Assembly (NCBI GenBank): GCA_038064835.1
Contig: JBBTSD010000001.1
Span: 234,361-298,360, forward strand
Length of the DNA stretch: 64,000 nt
Reading direction: 5' to 3'
DNA from: Patescibacteria group bacterium
GTDB lineage: Bacteria; Patescibacteriota; Minisyncoccia; Phycocordibacterales; UBA2100
In this document: in pieces, positions 897 to 56,464 of the stretch
How positions within the stretch are numbered: position 1 is the stretch's first letter
Layout of the letters: each line of letters begins with the position of its first letter
Made by a program: the position numbers and the translations under genes
Notes under the pieces: generated by a model
What the model saw: the letters and a program-made list of their open reading frames with translations, nothing else
Databases searched by the model: none
What the model was told of the DNA's origin: nothing

Positions 897-964
897 TGTT
901 TCCGTGACTCGGATTGTTTCAAGAGGCATGGATTCATGGCGTAATAATGGTACAGTGCAACGCT

Positions 965-2428
965 ATGGCTCGCGCAGAATCACTACTGTCATTCGAAGGA
1001 GTCTCCTTTGAATACGGTCCCAACAAGCCGATACTCGATACGGTGGATTTTTCTGTACGCCGCGGCGCCAAGGTCACTTGCATGGGGCAAAACGGTGCGG
1101 GCAAGAGCACTATTTTTCAGTTGGTAACAGGGGCGCTTTCTCCCGAGAGTGGCAAGATCAATATTCCGCACGGCCTCTCGATTGCGGTATCGCGACAGGT
1201 CATTTCTCGCGACCAGCTTGATCTGACGGTGCGTGATTTTTTCCGCGCTTGCTTCGACACACCCATCTACGATATCGACCCACGCATCGACGAGATGCTC
1301 GAGGTGGTGCATCTGCGTGGACACGAAAAAATCCATGACCGCATCATGCGATCATTTTCGGGTGGGCAACAGGCACGACTGCTTCTCGCTTCCGCCCTGA
1401 TTCAAAACCCAGATTTGCTATTACTTGACGAGCCAACTAACAACTTAGATAAGGCCGGCATTGAGCACCTTACAGATTTTTTGGTCCACTATTCAAAAAC
1501 AGTCATGGTGATTTCGCACGACGCGGAATTTCTAAATGCCTTTAGCAACGGTGTGCTGTATTTGGATGTACGCACTCGCAAGGTCGAGCAATACTCAGGA
1601 AACTATCACGATGCAATCAAGGAAATCGCGGCGCGCATCGAGAAGGAGAATCGCAAAAACGCTCAGCTTGCGAAAGAGATTCAAGAAAACAAAGACAAGG
1701 CAAACTTTTTTGCGAACAAAGGAGGGCAGATGCGTCTGGTCGCCAAACGCATGCGCACCAAGGCGGAAGAGCTAGAGGAAGAAAAGGTTGATGTGCGCAA
1801 AGAGGACAAGACAATCCGTCCCTTTACCTTTCCCGTGCAAGAACGCCTTGGCGGGAATGTGGTCACCTTTTCTTCGTACACAGTGATCGGCAAGAAGAAC
1901 AAGCCGGTGACAAAGAAATTCAATCTGGTGCTTCGTCGTGGTGTGCGCCTGTTGTTGCGCGGACCAAACGGTATTGGCAAGACTACTCTGCTTGAGACAA
2001 TCGCCAAGCGAACAGCTGTGGGTATCGAAGTTCCACCTGAAGTAAAAATTGGGTATTATCGGCAGGATTTTTCGACACTCAATTTTGACGAGACAGTGAT
2101 GAGTGCACTGATGCACGCGTCACCAAAAAAAGATGAGGAATTTGTGCGTAGTCTAGCCGCAGGTTTTCTGGTCACGGGTGAAATGATGCGCACCAAAATC
2201 GGGAATCTTTCCGAGGGGCAAAAAGGACTGGTGGCGTTTGCGCGCCTGGTGCTCGAGCGACCAGGACTTCTCATTCTGGACGAGCCGACCAACCACATCA
2301 ATTTTCGACACATTCCCGAGATTGCCAAAGCGCTTGATCAGTTTGAAGGAGTAATGATTTTAGTGAGCCATGTCCCTGATTTTGTCGCACAAATTCGTAT
2401 TGATGAAGTGTTGGACTTGGAAAGATAA
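965..2428 (+). CDS. ABC-F family ATPase (two ABC domains; translation-associated EttA/Uup-like)
   Basis: Two Walker A motifs (GQNGAGKST, GPNGIGKTT). Two ABC signatures (LSGGQQARL, LSEGQKGLV). Two Walker B (LLLLDEPTN, LLILDEPTN) with a charged linker between them. No transmembrane domain. Track ORF starts at TTG 914; ATG 965 gives MARAESLL. Confidence 0.85.
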   Translation: MARAESLLSFEGVSFEYGPNKPILDTVDFSVRRGAKVTCMGQNGAGKSTIFQLVTGALSPESGKINIPHGLSIAVSRQVISRDQLDLTVRDFFRACFDTPIYDIDPRIDEMLEVVHLRGHEKIHDRIMRSFSGGQQARLLLASALIQNPDLLLLDEPTNNLDKAGIEHLTDFLVHYSKTVMVISHDAEFLNAFSNGVLYLDVRTRKVEQYSGNYHDAIKEIAARIEKENRKNAQLAKEIQENKDKANFFANKGGQMRLVAKRMRTKAEELEEEKVDVRKEDKTIRPFTFPVQERLGGNVVTFSSYTVIGKKNKPVTKKFNLVLRRGVRLLLRGPNGIGKTTLLETIAKRTAVGIEVPPEVKIGYYRQDFSTLNFDETVMSALMHASPKKDEEFVRSLAAGFLVTGEMMRTKIGNLSEGQKGLVAFARLVLERPGLLILDEPTNHINFRHIPEIAKALDQFEGVMILVSHVPDFVAQIRIDEVLDLER

Positions 2429-2467: not shown

Positions 2468-4222
2468 ATGAAAAATATCCTTGCGTTCCTATTGCTTGTT
2501 GCGGTGCTTGCTTCAGCAGTACCTGTTCCGGCTTTTGCGCTTACTAAAAAAATCGAGACTGCGGGGAGCCCGTACACAATTGTCGACAAACGCGACTACC
2601 CGATTATTTTCATTCACGGTGCGGCGGGTGCCGAGCTTGAAAAGAACGGTGCAAGCTTGTGGCCAGGGAACCTGGGTGGGGTAGTAAACGATTCGGCGGC
2701 GGCCCAGTTGGCACTCAATAGCGATGGCAAGACAGACTGTTGTGGCACCATCGACGCGCCACGAATCATGAAGTATGCATCGGGTTATGATTCAGTGGGC
2801 GCAGGGTTTATCTCTGTCTACGCCGGGTTCTACACCTACATGGAAGAGCAGGGTTTTGGGTATGAGAAGAAACACGACGGAAAAGTGTTTTACGATTTTG
2901 TGTACGACTGGCGCGAAGACAATCGCACTTGGACGAAAGATTTGGACAAGAAAGTAGACCAAGTACTAAAGGAGACCGGTGCGGAAAAAGTGTACCTCAT
3001 TGGTCACTCGATGGGTGGCTTGCAGGCGCGCTTGTATATGAAAGACGCAGGGCGTGCCAAAAAAGTTGCAGGAGTCATCTTCCTTGGCACCCCACACCAC
3101 GGGGCACCCCAGGTGTATTGGGCATATACCTATGGCTACAATTTCGGGAACCCAAAAGTAGGCATTACGCGCATGTGGGAGGTGATGAAGAACTGGCCAG
3201 CAGGATACCAGTTGCTCCCCGATTATCCGACTGTCCAGGACGAAAGCGGAAAATTCTGGACGCTAGATCAGATGTACAGCGGAGGCACTTTCTACAGTGA
3301 GCAAGAATATTCGCACAAAATCGATGGCGCGATGCAGAGAAAAGACTATTTGATGACATCCGGTCTTCCGAATACGCGTTTTGCAAAAGATGCTGTTGAG
3401 TTCCATAAATATCTCGGCGATAGTGTCGACAAATATCCGGGAGTGAAATATGTGCACATTGCTGGCACCGGACAAAAAACTCTGCAGTATCTCGAGGCAA
3501 CGATGGTGAATCGTCCAGGCTTTGACCTGCCGATTCTCACAATGAAGCGCATCGAAAATACCCATGGTGATGGCACAGTGGCAGCGGCGGGGGCGAAAAT
3601 CGAAGGAGTCGATGAGTATCTGACAGTTGTCGGGGAACACGCGGCGCTTCCAGGGATTCCCGAGGTCACCGGGCATATTACGCGTCTGCGCGAATCATGG
3701 AATGACGAAAAGGCACGCGTGGCTCTTGCACGAAAAGTGAAAGCGTATGCAGAAAACCGTTTGCCACAGCTCGAAGCCATGCGAAGCGCCGGCCTTTCGA
3801 GTGGAGCAAAGCCTGCTGACAACGAAACATCACTCGTCAGTATTTTGTTCCGAGCGCTTTTCTTTGGTGCTCCAGACGAGCAAAAGATTAAACAGCGCGA
3901 TGATCTGCGCCGCTATGTGGCAAAGATATTCGAAGACGGAAATGTGAATGTAAAGATTTTGGCGAGTGATGGTCGTTCCGAAGAAGATTTGTTTGCGGTA
4001 ATTCGCGGATTCAAGGTGATAGAGACAGGTACAGGTATCGCGTCACCACAACGCGCCTTGGTAACCGTGAAAGACTATGCCACATTCGAGGCGCTGACGA
4101 ATGGAAATATGGATGCGCGCGACGCGCTCAAGTCTGGTGCCATTAGCCTTTCAGGGGGCGGCCTTATTGATGGTCTCAAAACAAAAGTCTATAGCTGGTG
4201 GCTGAAGTATGGAGCAAAGTAG
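2468..4222 (+). CDS. Secreted alpha/beta-hydrolase, lipase/esterase-like (GHSMGG nucleophile elbow)
   Basis: N-terminal signal peptide MKNILAFLLLVAVLASAVPVPAFA. IGHSMGG lipase motif, then FLGTPHHGAP, as in class-2 lipase / PGAP1 / LCAT-like folds. Confidence 0.7.
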   Translation: MKNILAFLLLVAVLASAVPVPAFALTKKIETAGSPYTIVDKRDYPIIFIHGAAGAELEKNGASLWPGNLGGVVNDSAAAQLALNSDGKTDCCGTIDAPRIMKYASGYDSVGAGFISVYAGFYTYMEEQGFGYEKKHDGKVFYDFVYDWREDNRTWTKDLDKKVDQVLKETGAEKVYLIGHSMGGLQARLYMKDAGRAKKVAGVIFLGTPHHGAPQVYWAYTYGYNFGNPKVGITRMWEVMKNWPAGYQLLPDYPTVQDESGKFWTLDQMYSGGTFYSEQEYSHKIDGAMQRKDYLMTSGLPNTRFAKDAVEFHKYLGDSVDKYPGVKYVHIAGTGQKTLQYLEATMVNRPGFDLPILTMKRIENTHGDGTVAAAGAKIEGVDEYLTVVGEHAALPGIPEVTGHITRLRESWNDEKARVALARKVKAYAENRLPQLEAMRSAGLSSGAKPADNETSLVSILFRALFFGAPDEQKIKQRDDLRRYVAKIFEDGNVNVKILASDGRSEEDLFAVIRGFKVIETGTGIASPQRALVTVKDYATFEALTNGNMDARDALKSGAISLSGGGLIDGLKTKVYSWWLKYGAK

Positions 4223-4224
4223 GT

Positions 4225-4411
4225 CCCTAAGGGCACTTCCATAAATAACACCATCATCTTTCGCCCACTGCATCACCGTATACAACCCTTGCTCTGTCGC
4301 GAAATATCTCGGCGTACTTATAGTACGACTCGATATTTCACTCGGTCGCAAGGGCCGTCTACGGTGCGCATTAAGCGAAATCTGAAGCAGTTATTTACGG
4401 AAGTGCCCTAA
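4225..4411. mobile_element. MITE-like element, family A, copy 1 (about 187 bp, 22-bp terminal inverted repeats)
   Basis: About 99% identical to 40423..40609 (one internal mismatch). The ends ttagggcacttccataaataac and gttatttacggaagtgccctaa are inverted complements. There is an internal palindrome around gaaatatctcgg...cgactcgatatttc. Confidence 0.65.
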
Positions 4412-4560
4412 GAAGCTGTCTAACTTCAGTGGGCTACTGAAGAGCTTGAATTGGTCTACACGGAGCGCGGAGGAGTGCTCAAGCTCATGTGCGTCAATAG
4501 TTTTCGCCAGAGCACAACAGAGCAGGGGTCACAAGCCTCTGCTTTTGCTATAATTGAGTC

Positions 4561-7501: not shown

Positions 7502-7666
7502 CTAGTACCCCATTCATAAAATTTTGTCCATAAAACCGCATAATCGTGGCTGCGGCTCGGCAAAAATTCCTTGCCAATGCCCCTGCATTGCCTCGGTATT
7601 TTTACCTTCGCCTCGCTCACGATTCTCCGGTTTTCTCAGGACAAAATTTTACGAACGTGGCACTAG
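7502..7666. mobile_element. MITE-like element, family B, copy 1 (about 165 bp)
   Basis: The first 88 bp are near-identical to 39652..39739. The ends ctagtaccccattcataaaattttgtcc and ggacaaaattttacgaacgtggcactag are degenerate inverted complements. Confidence 0.6.
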
Positions 7667-7697: not shown

Positions 7698-8573
7698 ATG
7701 ATACATAAGTCTTGGATTCTGGGAGGGGTCACTGCACTGTCACTGTTACTTGTGACCAGTGTTCACGCGGCACCAAAAACTGAGTTGCATATAAAAGCTG
7801 ATGGCACCATCGTCGCTACTAATGTAGTTGTTCGGCAAAAATCTGGATCTAATCTTTTCTCGCGCATGACTTGGGGAGAGGCTGTCTATGCGCGCCTGGT
7901 TGTTTTGACGAAAGACACGACAGTGGTAACCAAGGCCTATGGCGAACGCGCGACCAAGGATGATATTCGCGAAGGCGATGTGCTTGATGTGGAGGGCAAG
8001 CTGGTAGGGGCTGACGGATCTATCACTATCGACGCGACGAGTGTGCGCGACCACTCACTACTTAAAGAGTCGAAAGTTATTTCTGGTATTGTAAAAAGTA
8101 TTGACGGTTCGGCACACTCATTCATTCTCCCCAACGCTGAATTCAAAGACACGACAGTTATGGTAACTAGTACCACCACCATTCAGAAAGGTGCCCGTTC
8201 GATCGGCTTTGGCGAACTCACACCTGGGTCAAAAATCATTTCCGTCTCTGGTGTCTACAGCTATCCCACCAATACGCTTTCAGCGATGCATGTAGAAGTG
8301 CACCAAGACAAATTGATTTTCACGCCAAAGAATTTCCAAGGTAAGCTCAAGGAGATTATTGGAACAAGTTTGCCAACTACACTAGTAGTTACCGTGGAAG
8401 GAACCGACTACACCGTGTATCTGTCTGCAACGACTAGTGTTTTGAATGGCGCGAAGGCAAAGACTACCCTCAGTCGGTACGAACTAGGGGACACCGTTCG
8501 TTTCTATGGTGCAATTCGGCCGGTAAATCTATCGGAGATTGACGCAGAAATCGTTCGCGACATCGATTTCTAG
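7698..8573 (+). CDS. Secreted hypothetical protein (signal peptide, beta-rich repeats)
   Basis: Signal peptide MIHKSWILGGVTALSLLLVTSVHA. The track ORF starts inside the MITE; ATG 7698 is used instead. Confidence 0.5.
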   Translation: MIHKSWILGGVTALSLLLVTSVHAAPKTELHIKADGTIVATNVVVRQKSGSNLFSRMTWGEAVYARLVVLTKDTTVVTKAYGERATKDDIREGDVLDVEGKLVGADGSITIDATSVRDHSLLKESKVISGIVKSIDGSAHSFILPNAEFKDTTVMVTSTTTIQKGARSIGFGELTPGSKIISVSGVYSYPTNTLSAMHVEVHQDKLIFTPKNFQGKLKEIIGTSLPTTLVVTVEGTDYTVYLSATTSVLNGAKAKTTLSRYELGDTVRFYGAIRPVNLSEIDAEIVRDIDF

Positions 8574-8631
8574 TACCTATATTCTTCATAAAAATCCTGG
8601 CGTACACGGGAATGATGAGTATAATCCCCGA

Positions 8632-9168
8632 ATGAAAACATATCTTATTGCGGGTGTTATAGCGGTTGTGGTTTTGGGAGGTGGGTGGATGCTGTGGTCG
8701 GGAAGCGATTCGACGACTCCAGAGGCTGAGGTACCGGTCGCTGTAGCAGATACAAATGACACATTGGTAGTCGACGGAAAATTCAACGGATCAATCTTTG
8801 ATTTGGCAAAAAGCGGCAAGTCGTACAAGTGTACCCTGTCACACACCATTCAGGGCGTGACTACAAACGGTACTATCTATGTTTCTGGATCAAATGTCCG
8901 AGGAGATTTTTCGAGCACCGTGCCTGTTGTGGGCACAGTTGAAATGCACATGATTTCTGACGCCGATTTCGTGTACAACTGGAGCTCGATGATGCCGACA
9001 GGTTTTAAGGCAAAGCGAACGGACGGAGGTGTCACTGACGGAGGTGACGCACTGTCCGGACAATCGTTCGATGCGGACATGGTATACGAGTACGACTGTG
9101 TACAGACACCAGCAGACGCATCACTGTTTATTGTCCCTACAGACATCATCTTCAAAACGACAGGCTAA
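8632..9168 (+). CDS. Membrane-anchored hypothetical protein
   Basis: N-terminal TM anchor MKTYLIAGVIAVVVLGGGWMLW. No recognisable domain. Confidence 0.45.
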   Translation: MKTYLIAGVIAVVVLGGGWMLWSGSDSTTPEAEVPVAVADTNDTLVVDGKFNGSIFDLAKSGKSYKCTLSHTIQGVTTNGTIYVSGSNVRGDFSSTVPVVGTVEMHMISDADFVYNWSSMMPTGFKAKRTDGGVTDGGDALSGQSFDADMVYEYDCVQTPADASLFIVPTDIIFKTTG

Positions 9169-26355: not shown

Positions 26356-26437
26356 GGAGGGTGTGAGCAGTTACCTCCACAATTTTGCCAGAGAGTAGAC
26401 AATCCACTCGTTCAGGAGTAGATTTTCTGTTCGTCAT

Positions 26438-26974
26438 ATGTCCAGTGTTTTACGAGTTTTACGAAAAGTAGCCAGCGTTGGCACCCCCACCGAGCCTGCT
26501 CCCGAGGCTGTTTTCGTTGCAAAAGAGCTACCTGTAGGGGAGAACTTGCGCAAAGCCATTGAACAATTATATGGCGGACGGGCACTGCGTATTCGACATG
26601 TGGATGCAGGATCGAACAATGGAGAGGAATATGAAATGACGGCACTCAACAATGCCTTCTACGACATCGAACGATTCGGCCTTTCTTTCGTCGCGTCTCC
26701 TCGACATGCGGATGTGCTCACCGTTTCCGGTCCGGTGACGAGAAATATGGAACACGCCCTGCGGGTGTGTTATGAAATGACACCTGCTCCGAAAATAGTG
26801 ATTGCTGTGGGTGATGGTGCATGCACCGGCGGTATCTGGAAAGACTCCTATGCAGTTGTTGGCGCTGTCGAAAATGTCATTCCTGTTGATCTCAAAATAC
26901 CGGGTGATCCGCCATCACCCAACGAGATTCTTTCAGGGATTCTGCATGCGCTGACGCATGCGCGAGTTCGTTGA
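26438..26974 (+). CDS. NuoB / group-4 hydrogenase small-subunit homolog lacking 3 of 4 Fe-S cysteine ligands (EhrS-like)
   Basis: It aligns to NuoB: RHVDAGSNNGEEYE replaces the CCxxE motif, IAVGDGACTGG replaces GSCAxSGG, and IPGDPP replaces GCPP. The conserved DIERFG and RHADVL regions are retained. Confidence 0.75.
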   Translation: MSSVLRVLRKVASVGTPTEPAPEAVFVAKELPVGENLRKAIEQLYGGRALRIRHVDAGSNNGEEYEMTALNNAFYDIERFGLSFVASPRHADVLTVSGPVTRNMEHALRVCYEMTPAPKIVIAVGDGACTGGIWKDSYAVVGAVENVIPVDLKIPGDPPSPNEILSGILHALTHARVR

Positions 26975-28940
26975 TATTTCTATGGGCTTACTTACTGAAC
27001 TTTTGGTGATTACTGGGTGCGCCGCACCATGTGTCGCGGGTTTTGTGGTTCTCCTTGCCCCGCACCGGAACACGGTCATGCAATCAGTGCTTGTTCTCGG
27101 TTCTCTCGCCGGCTTTTGCGGGACCATCCTTTCGTTCTTTATTGAGAATCCAATTTTCGCGTTGCTCGCACCATACACTATGGTTGACGCGGTGTCTTTG
27201 TTCTTTCTGTTGCTTGTTTTTGCAGGAACGGGCATCACCTCGTTTTTTGCCATCGCGTATGTACCACTATACAAGTATGCATTTCCCGCATCACGCGTGA
27301 ACGGAGCAACAGCATTTTTTGTGACCGGTATGCTGGGTGTTGTAGTTGCAGGGAGCGTTCCGCTGTTCCTTTTCTTTTGGGAAGTAATGTCTATAGCAGC
27401 ATACTTTCTGGTAGTTTCTGATCGTTCGGCAGAATCTATTAAGGCCGGACTCATTTACTTCGTCATGACCCATCTGGGGCTTGTTTCACTCCTTGGTGGA
27501 TTTGCGCTGATTGCGCCCGACTCGATTTTTGCTACCTGGCAAGATGTGGTAATTGCCGCGGGCGGAGCGTCCTACTGGTCGTTGGCGTTTGCCTTCGCGC
27601 TTTTCTGCATTGGATTTGGGTCAAAGGCTGGAATAGTGCCATTTCACGCATGGCTTCCGTATGCTCATCCGCAAGCTCCAAGTCACTCATCCGCACTTCT
27701 CTCTGGCGTTATGCTTCCTGTCGCTGTGTTTGGTTTTATTCGCATCAGCTCGCTATTTCCCTTTATCCCATTTGAATGGGCGTGCATGGTGATTGCGGCA
27801 GGACTCCTCTCCGCCTTCTTCGGGTCACTGCACGCCGCTGTCGAAAAAGATATGAAAAGACTGCTTGCCTATTCGTCAATTGAGCACATGGGGCTGATCT
27901 TTACCGGCATAGGCGTTCTATTGGTCTTGAAAACCGCACCACATGAAATTGCGGGGCCACTCATCGAGGGGGTTTCATTGTTCATAGCGCTTCATCTCGT
28001 CAATCATATGTTTTTCAAGGCAGGGCTTTTTATGTCTGCTGGTATCGTCGCCGCTAAGACACACACACGAAACCTGGATGAGTTGGGAGGTCTCGCAAAA
28101 CGCTGGCCTCTCTTTTCTGGGGGCGTTTTGCTCCTCTCGCTTTCGGCAGCAGCTCTTCCGCCTCTCGGTACTTTTTTTGGTGAGTGGGCTTTGATGCAAT
28201 CACTCGCACTCGGTATTGCTCAGCTACCTTTGCTTTTTGCGGGCGTTCTTTCCATTGTGCTTATGGTTGTCGCGCTCGCTGCTGGTCTTGCGCTCCTGGC
28301 ATCAATCAAATTGTTTAGTGTTGCATTCTTGGGACGAGCGCGTACAGAAAAAGCGGCGCATGTTGAGTCCTTGCCGTGGTCTTTGATGCTGGCTCCTCTG
28401 TTCTGTGCGGTGGGAGGGGTTCTTACTGCATTTATTGCCGTTCCATTTTTTGCGGCCCACACAATGCGGGGGGCAAACATTGTGTTTTCAGACATTAGTC
28501 TTGCCCCGACTGCCAGCGTAAATGTATGGGCGACTGCTGCCACGGTCCTCGTATTGGCCGGTCTCATACTGCTAGTGAGACGCTTGTTTGGTGCAGAAAA
28601 AGTTCGTATCACGGCAACATGGGATTGTGGTGCGCCACTCACGCCACGGATGCAATACACTGCAACAGGATTTGCAGGACCCGTTCGCTTCTTTTTTCGC
28701 CCGTTTCTCTTTTTAAAGAAAACACTCACCGTGACCCCGCTTGCAGGACATTCGTGGATTGCGAGTCGCGTGCTCATTTCAGAAGTAGGATCTGTCTGGG
28801 AGCGATGGGTGTACCAGCCTGTTGCGGATAGTGTGCTTTCAGTCGCGTCGTATGCAGCGCGTATACAAAGCGGAATAGTTCAGGTATATATTCTCATAAT
28901 TTTTGTGACCCTGGTTGCAACACTTACGCTCGCCATATGA
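26958..28940 (+). CDS. NuoL/MnhA-like antiporter-type membrane subunit (HyfB/EhrA-like)
   Basis: 660 aa, about 16 TM segments. WLPYAHPQAPSHSSALLSGV matches the NuoL/M/N signature [22 protein letters not shown]. The start overlaps the stop of the preceding gene. Confidence 0.75.
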   Translation: MREFVDISMGLLTELLVITGCAAPCVAGFVVLLAPHRNTVMQSVLVLGSLAGFCGTILSFFIENPIFALLAPYTMVDAVSLFFLLLVFAGTGITSFFAIAYVPLYKYAFPASRVNGATAFFVTGMLGVVVAGSVPLFLFFWEVMSIAAYFLVVSDRSAESIKAGLIYFVMTHLGLVSLLGGFALIAPDSIFATWQDVVIAAGGASYWSLAFAFALFCIGFGSKAGIVPFHAWLPYAHPQAPSHSSALLSGVMLPVAVFGFIRISSLFPFIPFEWACMVIAAGLLSAFFGSLHAAVEKDMKRLLAYSSIEHMGLIFTGIGVLLVLKTAPHEIAGPLIEGVSLFIALHLVNHMFFKAGLFMSAGIVAAKTHTRNLDELGGLAKRWPLFSGGVLLLSLSAAALPPLGTFFGEWALMQSLALGIAQLPLLFAGVLSIVLMVVALAAGLALLASIKLFSVAFLGRARTEKAAHVESLPWSLMLAPLFCAVGGVLTAFIAVPFFAAHTMRGANIVFSDISLAPTASVNVWATAATVLVLAGLILLVRRLFGAEKVRITATWDCGAPLTPRMQYTATGFAGPVRFFFRPFLFLKKTLTVTPLAGHSWIASRVLISEVGSVWERWVYQPVADSVLSVASYAARIQSGIVQVYILIIFVTLVATLTLAI

Positions 28941-29872
28941 CACTTCTTTTCGCATGTATAAATACCATAGTGATTGTTGCGATCGCCCCACTGACCATTG
29001 GTATAATCCGGAAAGGAAAGGCATATTTGCAGAATAGAAGAGGAGCATCAATTTTTCTCCCATACCTGCAAATTGCGTCACTTATGCGCAAGGAGATGAC
29101 TATAACGGAACATAGCTCATGGGTCTTTCGTAGTGTCCCGTTCGTTGTGCTTGCTAGCGCACTTTTTATAACTATCGCTATTCCTGCGGTGGTTATCGGA
29201 GTGATGCCCAGTGCCCTCACTAATATATTTGTGGTTGTGGGTGCGCTTGCGTTTGGTGCGGTTTTTCTCGTGATGGGCGGAATGGATACCGCTAGCACAT
29301 TTGGCAACATGGGATCCAGTCGAGAAATGACATTATCCGCTCTCGTAGAGCCCGTGATTGTTATCACCCTCTCCACACTTGCACTTCTGGCGGGGAGTTG
29401 GGGAGTGGACGGTATTCTTACAAACGCAGTTTTGAATCCATGGGCAGATGGTGGGGCATTCGCACTCACGCTTTGCGCGCTTCTGTTGATTACACTTCTT
29501 GAAAATGCTCGTTATCCAGTCGACAACCCTGCAACCCATCTCGAGCTGACCATGGTGCATGAGGCAATGATTTTAGAGTACTCGGGCCCGTATCTCGCGC
29601 TACTTGAATATGCAGCGGCAATCAAGCTTACAGTGATGGCTGTTTTTGTAGCAAACCTTGCGCTGCCATACGGACTGGTGGTGGCACCAGTATCGCTTGT
29701 AGGCATTCTGGTGGGCATCAGTTTGTTCTGCGGGAAGGTCGGACTTGCTGCCTTGGTGATTGCGCTAGTAGAGACCCTGGTTGTAAAAATGCGTTTCTAT
29801 CGAATGCAAGAGTATGTGTTACTCTCGCTTGCATTTGCCCTCGCTGGCTTGAGTGTTGCTCTACTCACCTAA
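28937..29872 (+). CDS. NuoH/HycD-like membrane subunit (EhrB-like)
   Basis: 311 aa. IRKGKAYLQNRRGASIFLPYLQ resembles the N-terminal loop motif of the NuoH/HycD family. ATGA start/stop overlap. Confidence 0.65.
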   Translation: MTLLFACINTIVIVAIAPLTIGIIRKGKAYLQNRRGASIFLPYLQIASLMRKEMTITEHSSWVFRSVPFVVLASALFITIAIPAVVIGVMPSALTNIFVVVGALAFGAVFLVMGGMDTASTFGNMGSSREMTLSALVEPVIVITLSTLALLAGSWGVDGILTNAVLNPWADGGAFALTLCALLLITLLENARYPVDNPATHLELTMVHEAMILEYSGPYLALLEYAAAIKLTVMAVFVANLALPYGLVVAPVSLVGILVGISLFCGKVGLAALVIALVETLVVKMRFYRMQEYVLLSLAFALAGLSVALLT

Positions 29873-29880
29873 TACATAGT

Positions 29881-30528
29881 ATGACTTCACTATCAGATAT
29901 AATTGTTATTTTTTCAGGCGGTATCTTGCTGGTGTCATTTTTCATGGTAAGCAGGATGCGCCTGAGGACAATGGTTTCTTTGTTCCGTGCGCAGTCTCTC
30001 TTGCTCGCTGGGTACACCAGTGTACTCGCACTTATTCTGGACGAGCCTGCCATGCTCATACCCGCCGGATTGATATTTGTTGCGAAAGTATTCGCCGTGC
30101 CTTACTTGATTCGTTCGTCCAGTAGGCGGATGAACGCTTCAGAGCGCCTCTCCTCCTTCTTGCGTCCTACAGGGTTATCAATTGCGGCACTTGTTTTAAT
30201 TAGCGGAGCTTTTCTCGTCGCACAATCACTGCCGTTCACTACATCAGAGCAGGGGATTGTGGGTACCGCTTTTGCTCTTATTGCACTCGGGTTTCTTCTG
30301 CTTGTAACACGCACAGATATGTATGGGCAGACGCTCGGTTTTCTGACGCTCGAAAATGGCATTTTTGCTTTCGGGCTTTCGCTCACCCATGGTATGCCGT
30401 TACTTGTCGAGCTCGGCGTTGTATTCGATGTTATGGTTGCATTCCTTCTGATGACGGCACTGTTGGCGAGAGCCCAAAAAGAATACCGATCAGTAGGTAC
30501 TGAAAACTTACGCGAGCTTATCGGCTAA
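29881..30528 (+). CDS. Small polytopic membrane subunit (HyfE/EhrC-like)
   Basis: 215 aa with about 6 TM segments. The size and operon position correspond to HyfE. Confidence 0.45.
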   Translation: MTSLSDIIVIFSGGILLVSFFMVSRMRLRTMVSLFRAQSLLLAGYTSVLALILDEPAMLIPAGLIFVAKVFAVPYLIRSSSRRMNASERLSSFLRPTGLSIAALVLISGAFLVAQSLPFTTSEQGIVGTAFALIALGFLLLVTRTDMYGQTLGFLTLENGIFAFGLSLTHGMPLLVELGVVFDVMVAFLLMTALLARAQKEYRSVGTENLRELIG

Positions 30529-30536
30529 TTACTTGT

Positions 30537-33550: not shown

Positions 33551-33600
33551 AATTCGGTCACATCTTCCAAAAAAGAAGTCCGCACTAATGCGGACTTTTG

Positions 33601-34290
33601 CTAACTAAGAAGTCGTTGGCGAATGACCGCCATAGCTTCTTTGCACATATGGGCATGAGAGAGAGCAGCGTTCAACATGTGCGGAACCTTCTGTCCGTGC
33701 CCGGGGTCGAAGTACGCGTCAATAATGGCCTCTTCTTTTTCGATAAAACTGTGGCAAGCATCTTTGCCCATCCCGACCAGCACAGAAGAGGCAAGATAAC
33801 AGCTAACAACTTCACTGTCCGCTCGGGTAATGAAATACTCGGGCGGCTCGATTCCCTGCTCTTTGATGCGCGCGGCCACAATACCGTGGTGCATTGAAAG
33901 GACTTCGTTGTCCACACTTTCGCAATCAACGCATGCGGTTGCGTAGAGAACGGCGTTAAGCCCATAGCCGTCAGTAATTACGACATCATGTGCCGCGAGC
34001 GCTGGCTTCAAGTGTCGCGCATTGAATTCATTCAGGTGCGCCCAACATTTGAATAGGCGCGTTACAGGGTGCTGTGTTCGCTCACTTTCAGCCCATAAAA
34101 GTGGGTGTGGCAGTTTCCCAAACGGGTCCTCCAGGAAGGCACATGAATGTTGAGGAAATGTGATTGGCACCGTGCGCTTGAGTCCTTTGAATACCTCTGT
34201 TCGTCCGCTTCCTCGCATTCCTGAAACGGAAAAGAAATGGACTTTCTTGGCAGACTGGCTCTGCTGTTTCTGTGCTGTGCTTTCGTGCAT
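33601..34290 (-). CDS. Thymidylate-kinase-like protein with atypical P-loop (GSGRTE, Lys to Arg)
   Basis: Aligns to dTMP kinase: VSGMRGSGRTE versus EGxDGxGKTT, IKPALAAHDVVITDGYG versus IKPAL....VIxDRY, and a LID-like region. The track start is TTG 34344; the first ATG is 34290. Confidence 0.5.
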   Translation of the reverse strand: MHESTAQKQQSQSAKKVHFFSVSGMRGSGRTEVFKGLKRTVPITFPQHSCAFLEDPFGKLPHPLLWAESERTQHPVTRLFKCWAHLNEFNARHLKPALAAHDVVITDGYGLNAVLYATACVDCESVDNEVLSMHHGIVAARIKEQGIEPPEYFITRADSEVVSCYLASSVLVGMGKDACHSFIEKEEAIIDAYFDPGHGQKVPHMLNAALSHAHMCKEAMAVIRQRLLS

Positions 34291-38850: not shown

Positions 38851-39669
38851 ATGAACATACTTGACGCGATTATACTCGGAGTGGTGCAGGGGCTCACTGA
38901 ATTCCTGCCTGTTTCTTCGTCCGGTCACCTTATTTTGGCTCGTGAGCTGTTTGGCGTTGGTATAGAGGGGGGACTTGCATTTGATGCAGCCCTTCATTTT
39001 GCGACCGCATGCGCTGTGATAATGTACTTCCGCGCTGACATAGTCGTCCTTGTGCAGTCGTGCTTTCGATTCATTATGCGTCATGAGGACTCTGCGGACG
39101 GCAAGGCTATGATGTGGGGCATTGCCCTTGCAACTATCCCCGCATTCGCACTAGGCCTTTTGCTTGAAAGTGTCATGGAAACAGTCTTTCGAAATGGCTC
39201 GTTGGTGGCAGGTACGCTTGTCGCAGGATCAGTAATTATGTATGCGGCAGAAAAATGGGTGTCGGTGGACACTAAAAGCCAAGTACCCACATTACGCACA
39301 GCGTTTCGGATAGGGCTCTTTCAATCACTCGCCTTGATTCCTGGTATGAGCAGATCGGGTATGGCTATTGCGGGAGGTATGTTTTTAGGGCTTTCACGAG
39401 AAGCGTCGGCGCGGTTTGCATTTCTGATTGCTGTGCCACTTATGCTGGGCGCCGGCTTGAAAAAAATTATAGACCTGGGGGCTGAAGGGTTGGCGGCGGA
39501 GGGAAATATATTGGCGGCGGGGATGATCACCGCGTTTTTGGTCGGGGTGTTCGTTATTCACTACTTGATGCAGTTTTTGCGTACGAATTCACTTACGGTA
39601 TTCATATGGTATCGCATGATCCTGGCGATGCTAGTACTTGGATCTATATGGCTAGTACCCCATTCGTAA
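38851..39669 (+). CDS. uppP: Undecaprenyl-diphosphatase
   Basis: GVVQGLTEFLPVSSSGHL and PGMSRSG are BacA/UppP motifs. The last 5 codons and the stop lie inside MITE-B copy 2. Confidence 0.9.
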   Translation: MNILDAIILGVVQGLTEFLPVSSSGHLILARELFGVGIEGGLAFDAALHFATACAVIMYFRADIVVLVQSCFRFIMRHEDSADGKAMMWGIALATIPAFALGLLLESVMETVFRNGSLVAGTLVAGSVIMYAAEKWVSVDTKSQVPTLRTAFRIGLFQSLALIPGMSRSGMAIAGGMFLGLSREASARFAFLIAVPLMLGAGLKKIIDLGAEGLAAEGNILAAGMITAFLVGVFVIHYLMQFLRTNSLTVFIWYRMILAMLVLGSIWLVPHS

Positions 39670-39802
39670 AATTTTGTCCATAAAACCGCATAATCGTGGC
39701 TGCGGCTCGGCAAAAATTCCTAGCCAATGCCTCTGCATTTTTCAGATATGGGGAAGATTATGAACAGCTACTTAGGACAAAATTTTACGAATGGGGTACT
39801 AG
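39652..39802. mobile_element. MITE-like element, family B, copy 2 (151 bp, perfect 28-bp terminal inverted repeats)
   Basis: ctagtaccccattcgtaaaattttgtcc and ggacaaaattttacgaatggggtactag are exact inverted complements. The first 88 bp match 7502..7589. Confidence 0.65.
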
Positions 39803-39805
39803 TGT

Positions 39806-39829
39806 GAAAAAACCCTCGAGAAGAGGGTT
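39806..39829 (-). terminator. Terminator for clpP (minus strand)
   Basis: aaaccctcgagaagagggttt hairpin with a T-run on the minus strand. Confidence 0.55.
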
Positions 39830-40422: not shown

Positions 40423-40609
40423 CACTTAGGGCACTTCCATAAATAACACCATCATCTTTCGCCCACTGCATCACCGTATGCAACCCTTGCTCTGTCGCGA
40501 AATATCTCGGCGTACTTATAGTACGACTCGATATTTCACTCGGTCGCAAGGGCCGTCTACGGTGCGCATTAAGCGAAATCTGAAGCAGTTATTTACGGAA
40601 GTGCCCTAA
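40423..40609. mobile_element. MITE-like element, family A, copy 2
   Basis: About 99% identical to 4225..4411 (one internal mismatch), with the same terminal inverted repeats. Confidence 0.65.
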
Positions 40610-41181
40610 AAACCAAGTGTTTGTGTCAACGGGCGCGAGGAGGGCTTGAGCCACTGTCGGGTATCAAGTTTTAAATCTTTCAACTTACCAAGCTCACGAT
40701 AGCGGACAGCCCCATTTTTAAGTGCAAAATCAAAAATCTTTCGTGTAATTTCAACATCTTTAAGGCAATATTCCCGCACCTGATCAATCTTGCCTTCTCG
40801 CCACCACTTCAGCGATTGAAGGCCATGACCGCTTTTGCGCTCGCCCAAAGTACCCTCGGCAATGGTATCCAATTTGATGCGCCTACCAAGGACAGCATAC
40901 ACTTCTTTGAGTAGGTCAAGACTTTTGAGTTGGGTGAGATCGCCTGGATAATATTTATTGAGTAGCGGAATATCGAAGTGATCGGAATTAAATCCGACAA
41001 GCATATCTGCTTTTTCAAGTACTTTCCAAAGACGAGGGAGGTCGCTCATTAAAAATGAGTCGTAGGAGCCATCTTGTGAATCGTGAATGCCAACAATCGC
41101 AAGTTCAAGTGCCGCGGGGTCTGATGATCCGACATCGGAGAACTGATTCGTAGTTTCAATATCAAAGGTGATGATGCGCAT
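40606..41181 (-). CDS. DEDD-family 3'-5' exonuclease (DnaQ/RNase T-like)
   Basis: FDIETT (Exo I), HFDIP (Exo II) and YCLKDVE (Exo III). The stop codon lies in the MITE-A terminal repeat. Confidence 0.65.
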   Translation of the reverse strand: MRIITFDIETTNQFSDVGSSDPAALELAIVGIHDSQDGSYDSFLMSDLPRLWKVLEKADMLVGFNSDHFDIPLLNKYYPGDLTQLKSLDLLKEVYAVLGRRIKLDTIAEGTLGERKSGHGLQSLKWWREGKIDQVREYCLKDVEITRKIFDFALKNGAVRYRELGKLKDLKLDTRQWLKPSSRPLTQTLGF

Positions 41182-51584: not shown

Positions 51585-51854
51585 CGATCTCTCCTTTCCT
51601 TCATTGTGTTTCAACTTGGACCAGCTCAGAGAGCTAGCTGTCGGTATTATATCATATACACATAGAAAAGCAATCTATAGGACAGTAAAGGACATCGTGT
51701 CCTTTACATGCTGGTGCAAGGATACCACCCGAAAAAAAGGAGTTCCCACATCAAAGAACAGTAATCGGCACAAGTCCATTACTTTACGAGGATGTGCGTG
51801 GTACTGTTGCCCATATTTTAGTAATCGCCGTTATTAATACAGAAATTATTTATA

Positions 51855-54800
51855 TGTTCGTGCGCAATCATCAAGGTGGAAAAAAGGGGTGGATGCAAGT
51901 GGCCCATAGCGCAAAGAAAGGCTTATCAGTTTTTGCAATCGTTGCTCTCGTTGTGATGAGCGTTCCTACCAGCGTTGTGCTTGCCGCGATTAGTTTTGGC
52001 TCCGTTGCTTCCGCAGCAAATGAATCAAGTCCTGGTAGCACTGACGACATAACAATTACTAAGCCAGCGTCCACCGTTTCTGGCGATTTTCTTGTCGCCG
52101 GGATTACCATCAATGGTGGTGATGAGGTGGATATCAACTCTGTCCCGAGTGACTGGGTCCTCATAGAACGCACAGATAATGACGACGATGTGATGTTGGC
52201 GACCTATTACAAATTTGCAGGTGGTTCTGAACCAGCCTCCTATACTTGGTCTTTTGACCGTGACGACAGCGGTGATGTACGCGCTGCGGGTGGTATTATA
52301 AGATACACGGGAGTACACACATCCTCTCCAATAGACGAAGAAGCGGAGAATGAGGGTGGGGACGATGAGCTCGATGCCCCCTCGGTAGATACAGACTATG
52401 CGAATGACATGGTCGTTGTATTCTATGCCCAAGATGACAACCGGGTGCATTCGACACCTTCGGGCACGACAGCTCGCTTTGATGCGGTCAACCCGGATAG
52501 TTCTGGCCCTCGTGTTTCTTCGGCAGATTTTGTCCAAGCGAGCGCAGGAGCAACTGGCGTCAAGACTGCGGAGATTGATGGCAACGAAGATTGGATTGCC
52601 CAAACAGTCGCGCTTCGCATGGCCCCGACCGCGTCAATCACCATTGTGAAAGAGGCGACTCCTGAACACTCGCAAAATTTTGAGTTCTCCACTTCAGGCG
52701 AAGGTCTTTCCGATTTTCTCCTTGACGACGATGCCGACGAAACGCTTTCAAACTCCGTTGTGTTCGACGAACTTGAGGCCGGAGTCTACTCAATCACAGA
52801 AGATGTAGTTGCTGGATGGACACAAACGAGTGCTGTTTGCTCTGACGGGAGCCTCGTTTCAGCCATAGATCTTTCTGAAGACGAGGACATCACATGTACA
52901 TTTGCTAACACTAAGCTCAGCTCAATCACTATCGTGAAGGACACAGTGCCGAATGACGCGCAAGATTTCGCGTTCAGCACCACAGGCACAGGTCTATCCG
53001 CCTTCTCGCTGGATGACGATGCCGACGGCACGCTCTCAAACACGAAGGTGTTTAGCGACCTCGTCGCAGGCGAGTACACCGTGGCAGAAATGACGGTCGC
53101 AGGTTTCGATCTCACCGGCCTTTCCTGCAGTGATGGAAGCGCGGTGGATATAGCAACTGGAACCTCTACGATCAGCCTCGCTGTTGGCGAGGATGTAACC
53201 TGTACCTACACAAACACCAAACGAGCAACATTCCAGATGGTGAAGTACACCGATCCAGCGGTTGGATCCTACGAATTCACTCTTGGCGATGGTGAACTTG
53301 AGCAAGATGGTTTCCCCATGACGCACACATTCACTCCAGCGGGTGAGTGGGGAGTGCTCAGTAATCTTTTGCCAGGTTCCTACAGCCTGAGCGAGACTAT
53401 TCTCGAACTTCCTGAAGAGAACGAGTATCCATCGTGGGAGCGCAACGCATCGTGTAACGGTATCTTTTCTGACCCATCTGGTTCAGTCGAAGGTGAAGGC
53501 CTTGCGCTTTCACTTGTCGCCGGAGAGGAGATGAGTTGTATCGTCAACAATACGCAAAATGCAGTTATCTCGGGCAAAAAGTTTGAGGATACTGACGGCC
53601 ATGGCGCAGAAGCTACAGGCTCGACCTTGAGTGGCTGGACAATCACCATCAAAGAAATCGTGGCGGACATTCCAGAGACTGAAGAAATTGACGAGAGCGA
53701 GGGAACCTATACTAATTCAAACAACACCAACGAGAGTGGCGACTACCTCTTCTTGGTTCCTCCTGGTACCTATCGTGTATGCGAAAGTCCAGAGCCATCC
53801 TGGTACCAATCGTTCCCAACCAGCAATTACAACTGCAACGATGAAGGATCATCCTACGACAATGGCTACGAGATCACTGTCGAGGCAGGTGATGTGGTGA
53901 CCGGCAAAGATTTTGGCAATTATCAACGCGGCACGATTGCTGGCGTGAAGTGGCATGATGCCAACGCAAACGGCACTGTCGAGGATGGAGAGAACGGTCT
54001 CGAAGGGTGGACTATCAATCTCTTAAAAGACCTTGGCGGGGGTTTTGAGTGGGTTGCATCTGCTGTCACTGACTCTGCAGGTGTCTACGAATTTTCAGGT
54101 GAAGGAGCACTTGATCCAGGAACTTACCAGCTTGAAGAGGTACAGCAAGGCGGATGGGTGCAGACATACCCAACCGATCCAACTACCCACACCACCACGC
54201 TCTCATCTGGAGGCTCGAATGTGAACAAGAACTTCGGAAATGTGGGAGATGCAACCATCTCCGGACAAAAGTGGAATGATGAGGACAACAACAGCGAATG
54301 GGATGAAGGCGAAGATGTGGTTACAGGCGATTCATTCACCTTTACGCTCCTACGCGTCGTAGGCGAAGGTGAGCCAGAGTTTGTCATCGCGACCACAACG
54401 ACAACAGGCTTTTACCGATTCATCAACTTGCTTCCAGGAACCTACATCGTTCTTGAGAACTCTGCAGAAGGTTGGATGCAAACATCCCCAACAGATCAAG
54501 GTGGTCACACAGTGACAGTTGGAGCAAACGAAGATTCTACCGACAATGATTTCGGCAACATCGAAGTTATTGAGCTCTATGGCTACAAGTGGAACGATTT
54601 AGACAAGAACGGTATCTGGTACAACGAAGAAGAAGGTGACGATGAGGAGAGTTATGAGCCGGGGATTCAGGACTGGAAGATTCACGCAACCCCGATAGTG
54701 GCAGAAGGTGGGGAAGTTGCGACGACTACCGATCGCATCGCAAAAATCGCACTCACGGACGAGGAAGGAGAATACGAATTTGAATTTCTTGGAAGTGAAA

Positions 54801-56464
54801 GTGGTTGGTGGCGCATTACCGAAGACAATCACCGCGGATGGACACAGACATATCCAGGTGGTATCGACGATGCCTACCATTACGATGTGTTCATCAGTCC
54901 AGAAGGTGATGGTGATGACTGTGAGGGGCCAGGATGGTGCGAGGGCGGATACTACGATTACAACTTCGGCAACTGGCAGTGGCCACTTATCAATGTGTTC
55001 AAGTGGCGTGATGTGAACCGTGATGGTCTATTCCTCGGCGAAGAAGCATCAACCACAGAGCCAGGCGTATCAGGAACACTGATTGGTGTAGGTCGCACTT
55101 TGCCGATTCCAGAGGAATCTCCAGAAGGGACACCGGTGCCTATCGAATTGGTTGCACTTGGTCTCACTGGTAATAATGGCTGGGCGCACATTCCGGTGCC
55201 ACAACAAGGAGATTATGTTGTGTTCGAAGCCGACCATCAATTCTGGGACAAGATGTTCCCTACAGCAACGCGCACTAATCCGTTCGCTCTCCAAAATCCT
55301 AGTGGACAGACTCCGTTTTACATCGACTCATTCTTCGATGTCTTTGCTGAGTTCGGTGCGCCCGCTCCGTTCCCTGGAGCCCCAACAACACAGTTCCCAG
55401 TGGACTCATTCTTTGACATCTTTGTGGACATGAGTGTTGATGGAACACCGACACCAATTCCAGCCCCCACAGCAGTTGATTCATTCTTCGATATCTTTAC
55501 CGAAGTGACTCCGGAACAGCGTGCAGACTCATTCTTCGACATCTTCGTGGAACTTCCTGAAGGTGTGAGCTTGCCTCCATTCCATCTGGACTCATTCTTC
55601 GATGTGTATGTCGGTCCGCTGTCTGGCGGTGAGGTCGCAAACGGTACAACTGGCGGTGAGTACGGTACTTCACCACTTCGTTTCGGCAACGCATTCACTG
55701 TCGCTTGTTCAGACGGTCTTGATAACGATGGTGATGGCCTGATCGATTACCCAGCTGATCCAGGATGTGGTGGCCCACTTGATGGTGATGAACCGCACAC
55801 TACTGGCAGTACCAGTTCGGGTAGTGGCGGCGGAAGCAATGGCCCTATCAGCGGTAGCTTCGGTGGCTCTAATGGTAATGGCCAGGTTCTCGGCGTATCG
55901 ACATCGACGAATGGTCTACCAGGACTTACGATACCTTCAGGCGAACAGTGCACCGACTACATCACTGAAAACATGGGTCCAAACCGCGTAAACAATCCAG
56001 AACAGGTACGACGCCTCCAGGAGATTCTCTTGCGCGAAGGATTCACTGTAGTAGTGAATGGCGTGTTCGACGCGGAAACGCTTGCGGCGGTGAAAGCATT
56101 CCAACTCAAGTACGCGGCAGACATCCTTGCACCGTGGGGTCTCACACAACCGACAGGTTTTGTGTACCTTACGACCAAGAAAAAGCTGAACGAGGTATTC
56201 TGTGGTGTGACAAGAACACTTTCCCCAGCCGAGCAAGCTATTATTGATGGCTTCCGCAGTGGGCAAGGTGGTGGAAATACCGGCGGTGGCGCAGGTGGCA
56301 ACAGTGCTCCTGGTACGCCAACCCCGTCGACTTCTCCGGCTGACACAAACGATGACGCACCAACAGACAATTCGCAGGTAGGTGCGGCAGCAGCGGCAAC
56401 CGACGATACCAAGACCGACAGCAAAGGATTCTGGGGCAAACTCCGTGGATTCTTTGGTCTTTAA
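51855..56464 (+). CDS. Giant surface protein: signal anchor, multiple Cna-B/SdrD-B-like domains, DSFFD[IV]F tandem repeats, C-terminal peptidoglycan-binding domain
   Basis: Repeated modules carry TxxxDxxAGWTQT and EGWxQTYP. DSFFD[IV][FY] occurs six times between 55320 and 55610. PG_binding_1-like NPEQVRRLQEILLREGF...AVKAFQ. Gly-rich tail. The start is uncertain (track GTG 51794; ATGs at 51855 and 51893). Confidence 0.75.

What the first reader, a model, noticed from the sequence alone, without database searches (positions are those of the whole stretch)
4225..4411. MITE family A: 187-bp element with 22-bp terminal inverted repeats, two nearly identical copies
4225..4411 and 40423..40609 are identical except for one internal position. 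Each is bounded by ttagggcacttccRtaaataac and its reverse complement, and each contains a second internal palindrome, so the element should fold into a long hairpin. Both copies sit in the 3' flanks of genes, after the lipase gene in copy 1 and between the exonuclease gene and clpP in copy 2. The near identity implies recent mobilisation by a transposase that is not encoded in this window.
Basis: seen in the sequence. Interest (0 to 1): 0.65.

Follow-up and report, generated by a model that had tools for sequence, protein, structure and literature searches.

The report
New MITE family in Patescibacteria
The two near-identical 184-bp repeats are copies of a small non-coding transposon (a MITE) that inserts at TAA/TTA sites in a tiny-genome groundwater bacterium; this is an ordinary kind of element in a group where none seems to have been described.

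Summary
Window 4228-4411 and 40426-40609 differ only at 4282/40480 (A/G) and 4229/40427 (A/T), and homology stops at the ends.

The whole core folds as one hairpin (z about -11). The host is a Patescibacteria MAG (GCA_964361175.1).

A second subfamily, 69% identical with the same termini, occupies six other sites in contigs of another Parcubacteria lineage (Staskawiczbacteria). All 16 flanks are T-W-A. Six of seven independent sites have a perfect TAA/TAA or TTA/TTA duplication, usually in a C|TWA|G context.

That signature fits IS5-family / PIF-Harbinger DDE transposases. No transposase lies in the window or about 8 kb either side of it, and no full-length partner was found.

Twelve stem pairs changed on both sides between the subfamilies, so the foldback itself is conserved. 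Copy 2 landed on the exonuclease stop codon and rebuilt it (TA of the duplication plus G of the element tip).

Verdict: a genuine MITE, a new member of a known kind, of modest interest. The genome-wide copy number and the parent element remain unknown.

The parts
4228..4230 (.). Copy 1, left target-site duplication TAA
   Evidence: Read directly. It matches the right-hand TAA at 4409-4411. The T-W-A pattern holds in all related copies.
4231..4408 (+). Copy 1, 178-bp MITE core (GGGCAC...GTGCCC), a full-length foldback
   Evidence: Fold z-scores are -10.9 (DNA) and -11.6 (RNA). The nhmmer profile gives E = 2.8e-54.
4231..4249 (+). Copy 1, left terminal inverted repeat GGGCACTTCCATAAATAAC
4390..4408 (-). 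Copy 1, right terminal inverted repeat GGGCACTTCCGTAAATAAC (read on the - strand)
4409..4411 (.). Copy 1, right target-site duplication TAA
40426..40428 (.). Copy 2, left flank triplet TTA (expected TAA; one mismatch to the right duplication)
40429..40606 (+). Copy 2, 178-bp MITE core; differs from copy 1 only at 40480 (G, against A at 4282)
40429..40447 (+). Copy 2, left terminal inverted repeat
40588..40606 (-). Copy 2, right terminal inverted repeat
40607..40609 (.). Copy 2, right target-site duplication TAA (the original target)
   Evidence: Relatives end the exonuclease gene with GGG TTT TAG. The target was therefore TTA on the gene's strand.
40606..40608 (-). Stop codon TAG of the exonuclease ORF, made of two bases of the duplication plus the terminal G of the MITE
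   Evidence: The ORF is 40606..41181 (-). All homologues end ...TLGF* at the same position.

Best explanation
This is a non-autonomous DNA transposon, a MITE. It has a 178-bp core with 19-bp terminal inverted repeats GGGCACTTCC(A/G)TAAATAAC.

**Mobilisation (inferred).** A DDE transposase supplied in trans binds the two termini, makes cuts staggered by 3 nt at a T-W-A target (preferred context C|TWA|G), and joins the element in. Repair then leaves TAA or TTA on both sides. That signature is the one given by IS5-family / PIF-Harbinger-type transposases, so a transposase of that kind is the most likely mobiliser.

**What is shown.**
- The termini and the duplications.
- Dispersed copies with unrelated flanks, in two Parcubacteria lineages.
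- The absence of a transposase in or near the window.
- The conserved foldback.

**What is inferred.**
- The transposase family.
- That the element is still mobile.
- That the foldback helps mobilisation, or simply mirrors protein-binding sites that must be the same on both arms.

**Effects on the host (inferred).** When transcribed, the element would put a very stable hairpin into the 3' end of the hydrolase mRNA and into the exonuclease-clpP spacer. That could affect mRNA processing or stability, as known for other bacterial MITEs.
For: - **Copies and ends.** The two window copies are 99.4% identical and homology ends exactly at the termini. The terminus occurs 4 times against 0.02 expected by chance.
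- **Second subfamily.** It is 69% identical overall but has identical termini. It occupies six further loci in metagenome contigs: L011, L010 (same as L009 and L004), L007, L008, and L013 twice. L011 shares its flank with L002, a Candidatus Staskawiczbacteria MAG.
- **Flanks.** All 16 flanks read T-W-A. Six of seven independent sites are perfect direct duplications (TAA/TAA four times, TTA/TTA twice). The base next to the duplication is C, or G on the right-hand side, in 10 of 14 flanks.
- **Variable middle base.** The middle base of the triplet varies among otherwise near-identical copies, so it comes from the target and not from the element.
- **Non-coding.** The frame that is open in subfamily 1 is closed in subfamily 2. 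Its peptides have no database match.
- **Position.** All insertions lie between predicted ORFs or at gene 3' ends.
- **Stop-codon insertion.** At the exonuclease site, relatives end with TTT TAG and homologues end ...TLGF*. That reconstructs an insertion into TTA across the stop codon, with the stop regenerated.
- **No transposase.** No transposase Pfam family is recorded in the window or about 8 kb beyond it.
- **Literature.**
  - PIF/Harbinger elements have 14-25-bp TIRs, 3-bp TTA/TAA duplications and an IS5-like DDE transposase (PMC2213677).
  - General features of prokaryotic MITEs are given in PMC10969869.
Against: - **No partner.** No autonomous partner with these termini was found in any collection searched. 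No strong transposase hit appeared among 37 ORFs of the subfamily-2 contigs.
- **Few host copies.** Only two copies are seen in about 79 kb of the host contig. The genome-wide count could not be obtained.
- **Imperfect duplications.** Copy 2 has an imperfect duplication (TTA/TAA), and so does L013b (TAA/TTA).
- **Weak statistic.** Six matches out of seven sites is not by itself significant against a coin flip for the middle base.
- **TIR motif.** The plant PIF/Harbinger motif G(N)5GTT is not present in the terminus.
- **Unexpected foldback conservation.** Conservation of the whole foldback by paired substitutions is more than a purely TIR-driven model requires.
Confidence: 0.8

Rival explanations
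1. It is a host-selected structured RNA or regulatory palindromic repeat that is no longer mobile, or never was transposase-driven. Candidates are an mRNA-stabilising hairpin, an RNase III target or a terminator, in the manner of REP or ERIC elements.
For: - The fold is very stable (RNA -85 kcal/mol, z = -11.6).
- Twelve stem pairs are kept by changes on both sides between the subfamilies, against 0-2 in the slid controls.
- Copies sit just downstream of genes, where they would be transcribed.
Against: - There is no Rfam match, even at E <= 1.
- There is no terminator-like or promoter-like site.
- Orientation relative to the upstream gene is opposite in the two window copies.
- Pairs are almost all Watson-Crick with hardly any G-U, so the symmetry holds equally on both strands. 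That is typical of a DNA-level palindrome rather than an RNA selected on one strand.
- Precise termini plus T-W-A duplications are unexplained by an RNA function.
- Changes within a single locus (the two L015 differences, and the 40480 G) break or weaken pairs. This argues against selection acting on individual copies.
Confidence: 0.08
2. It is a hairpin-dependent element moved as single-stranded DNA by an HUH (IS200/IS605-type TnpA) enzyme, or by another structure-specific recombinase. That would make it a PATE-like element rather than a DDE-type MITE.
For: - The whole element is an imperfect hairpin.
- The hairpin has conserved internal loops, for example the left-arm-only motif CGCCCACTGCATC.
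- The stems covary between the subfamilies.
Against: - IS200/IS605 derivatives lack terminal inverted repeats and make no duplication (own knowledge of the family).
- This element has 19-bp terminal repeats reaching the very tips.
- Its flanking triplet varies (TAA or TTA) and is matched on both sides in 6 of 7 sites.
Confidence: 0.04
3. The two copies arose by segmental duplication or gene conversion, and are not a mobile element.
For: Only two copies are seen in the window, and they are nearly identical.
Against: - Homology stops exactly at the inverted repeats.
- The same unit occurs at six unrelated loci in another lineage, with the same boundaries.
Confidence: 0.02

Closest known systems
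Tourist-like MITEs and their PIF/Harbinger partners (eukaryotes), related to the bacterial IS5 family
   Same: - A 3-bp TTA/TAA target-site duplication.
- Terminal repeats within the 14-25-bp range, starting GGGC.
- Small non-coding elements that fold back on themselves.
- An extended target resembling C-TWA-G. PIF's preferred target CWCTTAGWG is my own recollection and could not be verified in the library.
- The general features are stated in PMC2213677.
   Different: - The host is bacterial (Patescibacteria).
- The plant TIR motif G(N)5GTT is absent (the terminus reads GGGCACTTC).
- No transposase partner was found, so the relationship rests on the insertion signature alone.
Bacterial IS5-family insertion sequences with short duplications (IS1031, ISL2 and IS427 groups) and the MITEs derived from them
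   Same: - Short (2-4 bp) duplications centred on TA or TNA, and termini beginning GG or GA (own knowledge of ISfinder descriptions, not tested here).
- The IS5 family is placed with Harbinger and ISL2EU transposases in the phylogeny of PMC12730594.
   Different: - No IS with these termini could be retrieved.
- ISfinder could not be queried.
Correia (Neisseria), RUP (Streptococcus pneumoniae) and ERIC (enterobacteria) elements
   Same: - Intergenic non-coding repeats of 100-200 bp with inverted-repeat ends.
- Their transcripts form stable stem-loops and can alter mRNA processing (PMC10969869).
   Different: - Correia and RUP, from my own knowledge, duplicate TA. This element duplicates TWA.
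- There is no sequence similarity, and the host phylum differs.
Rickettsia palindromic elements and Coxiella QMITEs (MITEs in reduced genomes)
   Same: Palindromic MITE-like repeats in small, compact genomes, tolerated at gene ends (PMC10969869).
   Different: - RPEs insert in frame within genes.
- Here only the last bases of a gene are touched, and the stop codon is rebuilt.

Membership tests
MITE (prokaryotic, generic definition as in PMC10969869) | Short (<500 bp) and non-coding | tested here: met
   The core is 178 bp. No frame is open in both subfamilies. The translated frames have no database match.
MITE (prokaryotic, generic definition as in PMC10969869) | Terminal inverted repeats | tested here: met
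   The repeats are 19 bp with 18/19 matching, and are identical between the subfamilies.
MITE (prokaryotic, generic definition as in PMC10969869) | Target-site duplication flanking each copy | tested here: met
   All 16 flanks are T-W-A. Six of seven independent sites are perfect direct repeats. No empty site was available for direct proof.
MITE (prokaryotic, generic definition as in PMC10969869) | Several dispersed copies with unrelated flanks | tested here: met
   There are two sites in the window and six in subfamily-2 contigs. The count for the whole host genome could not be obtained.
MITE (prokaryotic, generic definition as in PMC10969869) | An autonomous IS with matching termini that supplies the transposase | tested here: inconclusive
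   None was found in genome, metagenome or viral contig scans, in plasmids or phages, or in the held loci. The scans required exact 19-mers, and the host genome is not in the collections.
IS5 / PIF-Harbinger-derived (Tourist-like) MITE | 3-bp TTA/TAA duplication | tested here: met
   the definition is from PMC2213677.
IS5 / PIF-Harbinger-derived (Tourist-like) MITE | TIR motif G(N)5GTT of plant PIF/Harbinger elements | tested here: not met
   The terminus reads GGGCACTTC, so positions 7-9 are TTC and not GTT. This motif is plant-specific (PMC2213677) and may not apply to bacterial relatives.
IS5 / PIF-Harbinger-derived (Tourist-like) MITE | Mobilised by a DDE transposase of the DDE_Tnp_1 / DDE_Tnp_4 type | not testable with these tools
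   No partner was retrieved. This needs a search of the full host genome and of ISfinder.
IS630 / Tc1-mariner-derived MITE (Stowaway-like, RUP-like) | TA dinucleotide duplication abutting the termini | tested here: not met
   The two bases abutting GGGCAC on the left are AA at four of the seven independent sites.
IS200/IS605-derived palindrome-associated element (PATE) | No terminal inverted repeats and no duplication; subterminal hairpins; insertion 3' of a fixed tetranucleotide | tested here: not met
   The terminal repeats reach the tips, and the flanking triplets are variable but matched.
Any curated RNA family (Rfam 15) | A covariance-model match | tested here: not met
   There were no matches at gathering score over the window, and none at E <= 1 over 4150-4500.

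The most novel reading that the evidence does not exclude
The whole foldback, and not just the 19-bp ends, is required for the element's propagation. It could act as an extruded or single-stranded hairpin during transposition, or as a structured RNA. On this reading the lineage persists across Parcubacteria genomes that carry no cognate transposase, so it would be mobilised by an enzyme from outside the cell's own chromosome, such as a phage, a plasmid or the bacterial host of these episymbionts.
Probability: 0.1. Interest if true: 0.55.

Novelty: new member of a known kind. Interest (0 to 1): 0.3.

Why it matters
- **Undescribed in this group.** Patescibacteria (CPR) have very small, gene-dense genomes. 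I know of no MITE described in them, and two full-text searches found no report. The 2024 review of prokaryotic MITEs does not mention the group.
- **Active or recent transposition.** This family shows that transposition shapes these genomes now or did so recently.
- **A harmless landing site.** The element rebuilt the stop codon of the gene it hit. This shows how a TWA-targeting element can land in a genome with almost no intergenic space without harm.
- **Assembly breaks.** The element breaks short-read assemblies exactly at its ends. That is relevant to MAG contiguity.
- **A marker.** It offers a marker for strain tracking in the Hainich groundwater series.
- **Limit.** None of this changes what is known about how MITEs work.

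Tried and rejected
- **Exact-terminus scan of 185,579 species genomes.** It gave three single hits.
  - L002 is real: a contig-end copy in a Staskawiczbacteria MAG.
  - L001 and L003 are chance matches, with no T-W-A flank and no further similarity.
- **The same scan of metagenome contigs.** L005, L006 and L012 are chance 19-20-mers. The other loci are the subfamily-2 copies.
- **Translated-frame search.** I searched the protein database with the element's translated frames, hoping that gene callers had annotated copies elsewhere.
- **Apparent inverted pair in L008, 5575-6673, about 1.1 kb apart.** It lies inside the MreB and ProRS genes and is chance.
- **Other collections.**
  - Three viral-contig patterns gave no hit or chance hits only.
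  - Plasmids and phages gave nothing.
- **Profile search.** An nhmmer profile of both subfamilies over all 332 kb held found no diverged extra copies.
- **Rfam and promoter/terminator scans.** All were empty.
- **clpP as a cassette carried in by MITE-A and family B.** I considered this and set it aside. The two elements have different termini and duplications. An ordinary hairpin shared by the convergent genes lies between the clpP and bacA stops.
- **Literature check.** The PIF target preference could not be verified in the held library.

Full report
**1. The observation**

Reading both places and aligning them with 50 nt of flank shows one block of near identity, 4228-4411 and 40426-40609. 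There are two differences: 4282 A against 40480 G inside the element, and 4229 A against 40427 T in the outermost triplet. Outside the block the sequences are unrelated.

The repeat finder reports the same pair (D1). The 19-nt terminus GGGCACTTCC(A/G)TAAATAAC occurs four times, as two inverted pairs at 4231-4249 (+), 4390-4408 (-), 40429-40447 (+) and 40588-40606 (-). Shuffles give 0.02 matches on average.

The whole element folds into a single long imperfect hairpin. As DNA the energy is -48.4 kcal/mol (z = -10.9). As RNA it is -85.2 kcal/mol (z = -11.6). No shuffle does as well.

The first three bases of the stated range are flank. The left 'tta' is 'taa' in copy 1.

**2. Host and context**

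The exact proteins of the window are encoded on contig CAYHZP010000001.1 (330,809 bp) of assembly GCA_964361175.1, and the fetched DNA is identical to the window. NCBI labels the exonuclease protein 'Patescibacteria group bacterium'. Its closest named relatives are from Paceibacterota, Parcubacteria and Kaiserbacteria MAGs. Other samples that carry the same genes include a contig labelled 'Hain' (ERZ1292641), which I take to be the Hainich groundwater study.

Copy 2 lies between an RNase-H-like exonuclease and clpP.

The Pfam annotations attached to the called genes cover the whole window and about 8 kb beyond each end. They contain no transposase family.

Short-read (Logan) contigs of several samples stop about 30 nt into the element on either side. 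That is what a repeat present in at least two contexts does to an assembly graph built from short words. I take the word length to be 31.

**3. Relatives elsewhere**

An exact-terminus scan of one genome per species found only one real hit. It is the end of a contig of a Candidatus Staskawiczbacteria MAG (L002).

The metagenome scan found elements of the same length, 69% identical overall but with the same termini. They sit at six distinct loci on contigs of one sample series: L011; L010, which is the same locus as L009 and L004; L007; L008; and two in L013. L011 shares its flank with L002, so this second subfamily lives in a Staskawiczbacteria-like organism, another Parcubacteria lineage.

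A profile of both subfamilies finds no further copies in the 332 kb held. Viral contigs, plasmids and phages hold none.

**4. Ends and target**

When all copies are lined up, similarity ends at GGGCAC on the left and G(T/C)GCCC on the right. The three bases outside are T-W-A at all 16 flanks.

| Site | Left / right triplet |
|---|---|
| Copy 1 | TAA / TAA |
| L011 | TAA / TAA |
| L008 | TAA / TAA |
| L013a | TAA / TAA |
| L010 | TTA / TTA |
| L007 | TTA / TTA |
| Copy 2 | TTA / TAA |
| L013b | TAA / TTA |

L013b is not an independent event. It shares a further 29 nt of flank with L013a.

The middle base varies among otherwise near-identical copies and usually matches on the two sides. The triplet therefore comes from the target and is duplicated, and is not part of the element. 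The next base outward is C on the left, or G on the right, in 10 of 14 flanks, giving a preferred target C|TWA|G.

This 3-bp TAA/TTA duplication, with 14-25-bp terminal repeats, is the hallmark of PIF/Harbinger elements. Their DDE transposase is related to that of bacterial IS5 (PMC2213677; phylogeny in PMC12730594). From my own knowledge, several IS5 subgroups make such short TA-centred duplications.

The alternatives fit poorly. A TA duplication (IS630 type) is contradicted by the AA that abuts the left terminus at four of the seven independent sites. The IS200/IS605 type has neither terminal repeats nor duplications.

**5. The insertion at the exonuclease stop codon**

Most of the closest homologues are 191 aa, and all ten inspected end ...TLGF*. 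In two syntenic relatives the gene ends GGG TTT TAG.

In the window the gene ends GGT TTT TAG. The last T of TTT and the TA of the stop belong to the right-hand duplication (40607-40609). The G is the terminal base of the element (40606). Removing the element and one triplet gives GGT TTT TAG TGC, again with a stop at the same place.

The element therefore landed in the TTA that spans the last codon and the stop. Because its tip begins with G, it rebuilt the stop. This also identifies the right-hand TAA as the original target and the left-hand TTA (40426-40428) as the altered copy.

**6. The foldback is conserved**

A consensus fold of nine copies has 50 pairs, and 99.1% of cells are paired. 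Twelve pairs changed on both sides between the subfamilies, against 0-2 when the partners are slid by 1-3 columns.

Only two lineages are compared, so this represents one divergence, but the signal is clear. The pairs are almost all Watson-Crick, so the symmetry holds equally on both strands. This points to a constraint at the DNA level, or one independent of orientation, and not to an RNA selected on one strand.

Some asymmetric internal loops are shared by both subfamilies, for example the left-arm motif CGCCCACTGCATC. The subfamilies therefore descend from one already asymmetric ancestor, and were not made independently from two IS ends.

By contrast, changes within a single locus break or weaken pairs. 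These are the 40480 G and the two L015 differences. This looks like neutral decay of resident copies, with selection acting only on lineages that keep transposing.

Three readings remain open:
- the hairpin or cruciform helps transposition;
- both arms must carry the same array of protein-binding sites;
- the arms are homogenised by template switching.

I cannot separate these with the data at hand.

**7. What it is not**

- It matches no Rfam family, even at E <= 1.
- It has no sigma-70-like promoter and no intrinsic-terminator pattern.
- It has no ORF shared by the subfamilies.
- The peptides of its frames have no match among 5.8 billion proteins.

**8. What could not be settled**

The parent element was not found. 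The collection scans need exact matches, and the host genome is not in the searchable collections. The held subfamily-2 contigs carry housekeeping genes only. The copy number in the full host genome is unknown.

**9. Verdict**

This is a genuine MITE family with a Tourist / IS5-like insertion signature. It is present in at least two Parcubacteria lineages. It is a new member of a known kind.

I know of no MITE described in Patescibacteria. Two full-text searches found none, and a 2024 review of prokaryotic MITEs does not mention the group. Interest is modest. The points worth keeping are the conserved foldback, the stop-codon-preserving insertion, and the presence of mobile DNA in such reduced genomes.

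Noticed in passing
window 7502-7666 and 39652-39802: This is a second MITE-like family ('B').
- Its termini read TACCCCATTCGTAAAATTTTGTCC.
- Both copies are flanked by CTAG...CTAG, so the duplication is CTAG or TA.
- The left 88 nt are 97% identical between the copies, while the right interior is unrelated.
- Like family A, it has CGTAAA at positions 10-15 from the tip.
   Followed up: partly
window 39652-39669 (3' end of bacA, ORF 38851..39669): The family B copy sits in the last codons of bacA. The protein ends ...WLVPHS*, four residues longer than in two relatives, and its stop TAA (39667-39669) lies inside the element's terminus. Removing the element restores ...WLV*.
   Followed up: partly
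window 39830-40366 (clpP, - strand): clpP is bracketed by MITE-A copy 2 and family B copy 2. In syntenic relatives (L022, L024) the exonuclease gene abuts or lies close to bacA with no clpP between them, and L034 also lacks clpP there. A hairpin, AAAAAACCCTCGAGAAGAGGGTT (39808-39829), lies between the clpP and bacA stops.
   Followed up: partly
L013 2729-2942 and 8401-8767 (Ga0209542_10008537): The two subfamily-2 copies on this contig share 29 extra nt of flank (CTATAAAACACACATTCCAGGATTGGACT). That stretch is the terminus of a third inverted-repeat element (8401-8767), in which one copy is nested. The two 212-nt arms are inverted and enclose a 1710-aa ORF.
   Followed up: partly
L015 1725-1908 against window 40426-40609: An independent assembly of the same locus differs from the window at 2 of 3624 nt, and both differences are inside the 184-bp element. 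The cause could be cross-copy assembly, gene conversion from other copies, or a raised mutation rate in the hairpin.
   Followed up: no
window about 26400-33700: This is a cluster resembling complex I or a group-4 [NiFe]-hydrogenase: Oxidored_q6, two Proton_antipo_M genes, NADHdh, and a fused Complex1_30kDa/49kDa gene. I believe such clusters are uncommon in Patescibacteria genomes. The 49-nt repeat 27844/31432 reflects the two antiporter paralogues.
   Followed up: no
window 55311-55610: Four diverged 36-nt repeats lie inside the 1556-aa SpaA-like surface protein ORF 51794..56464. They are protein-domain repeats and not a DNA element.
   Followed up: no
window about 2270-2275: Several short-read contigs that carry the hydrolase gene begin at this point, inside the upstream ABC-ATPase ORF 914..2428. 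This suggests another repeated or strain-variable stretch there.
   Followed up: no
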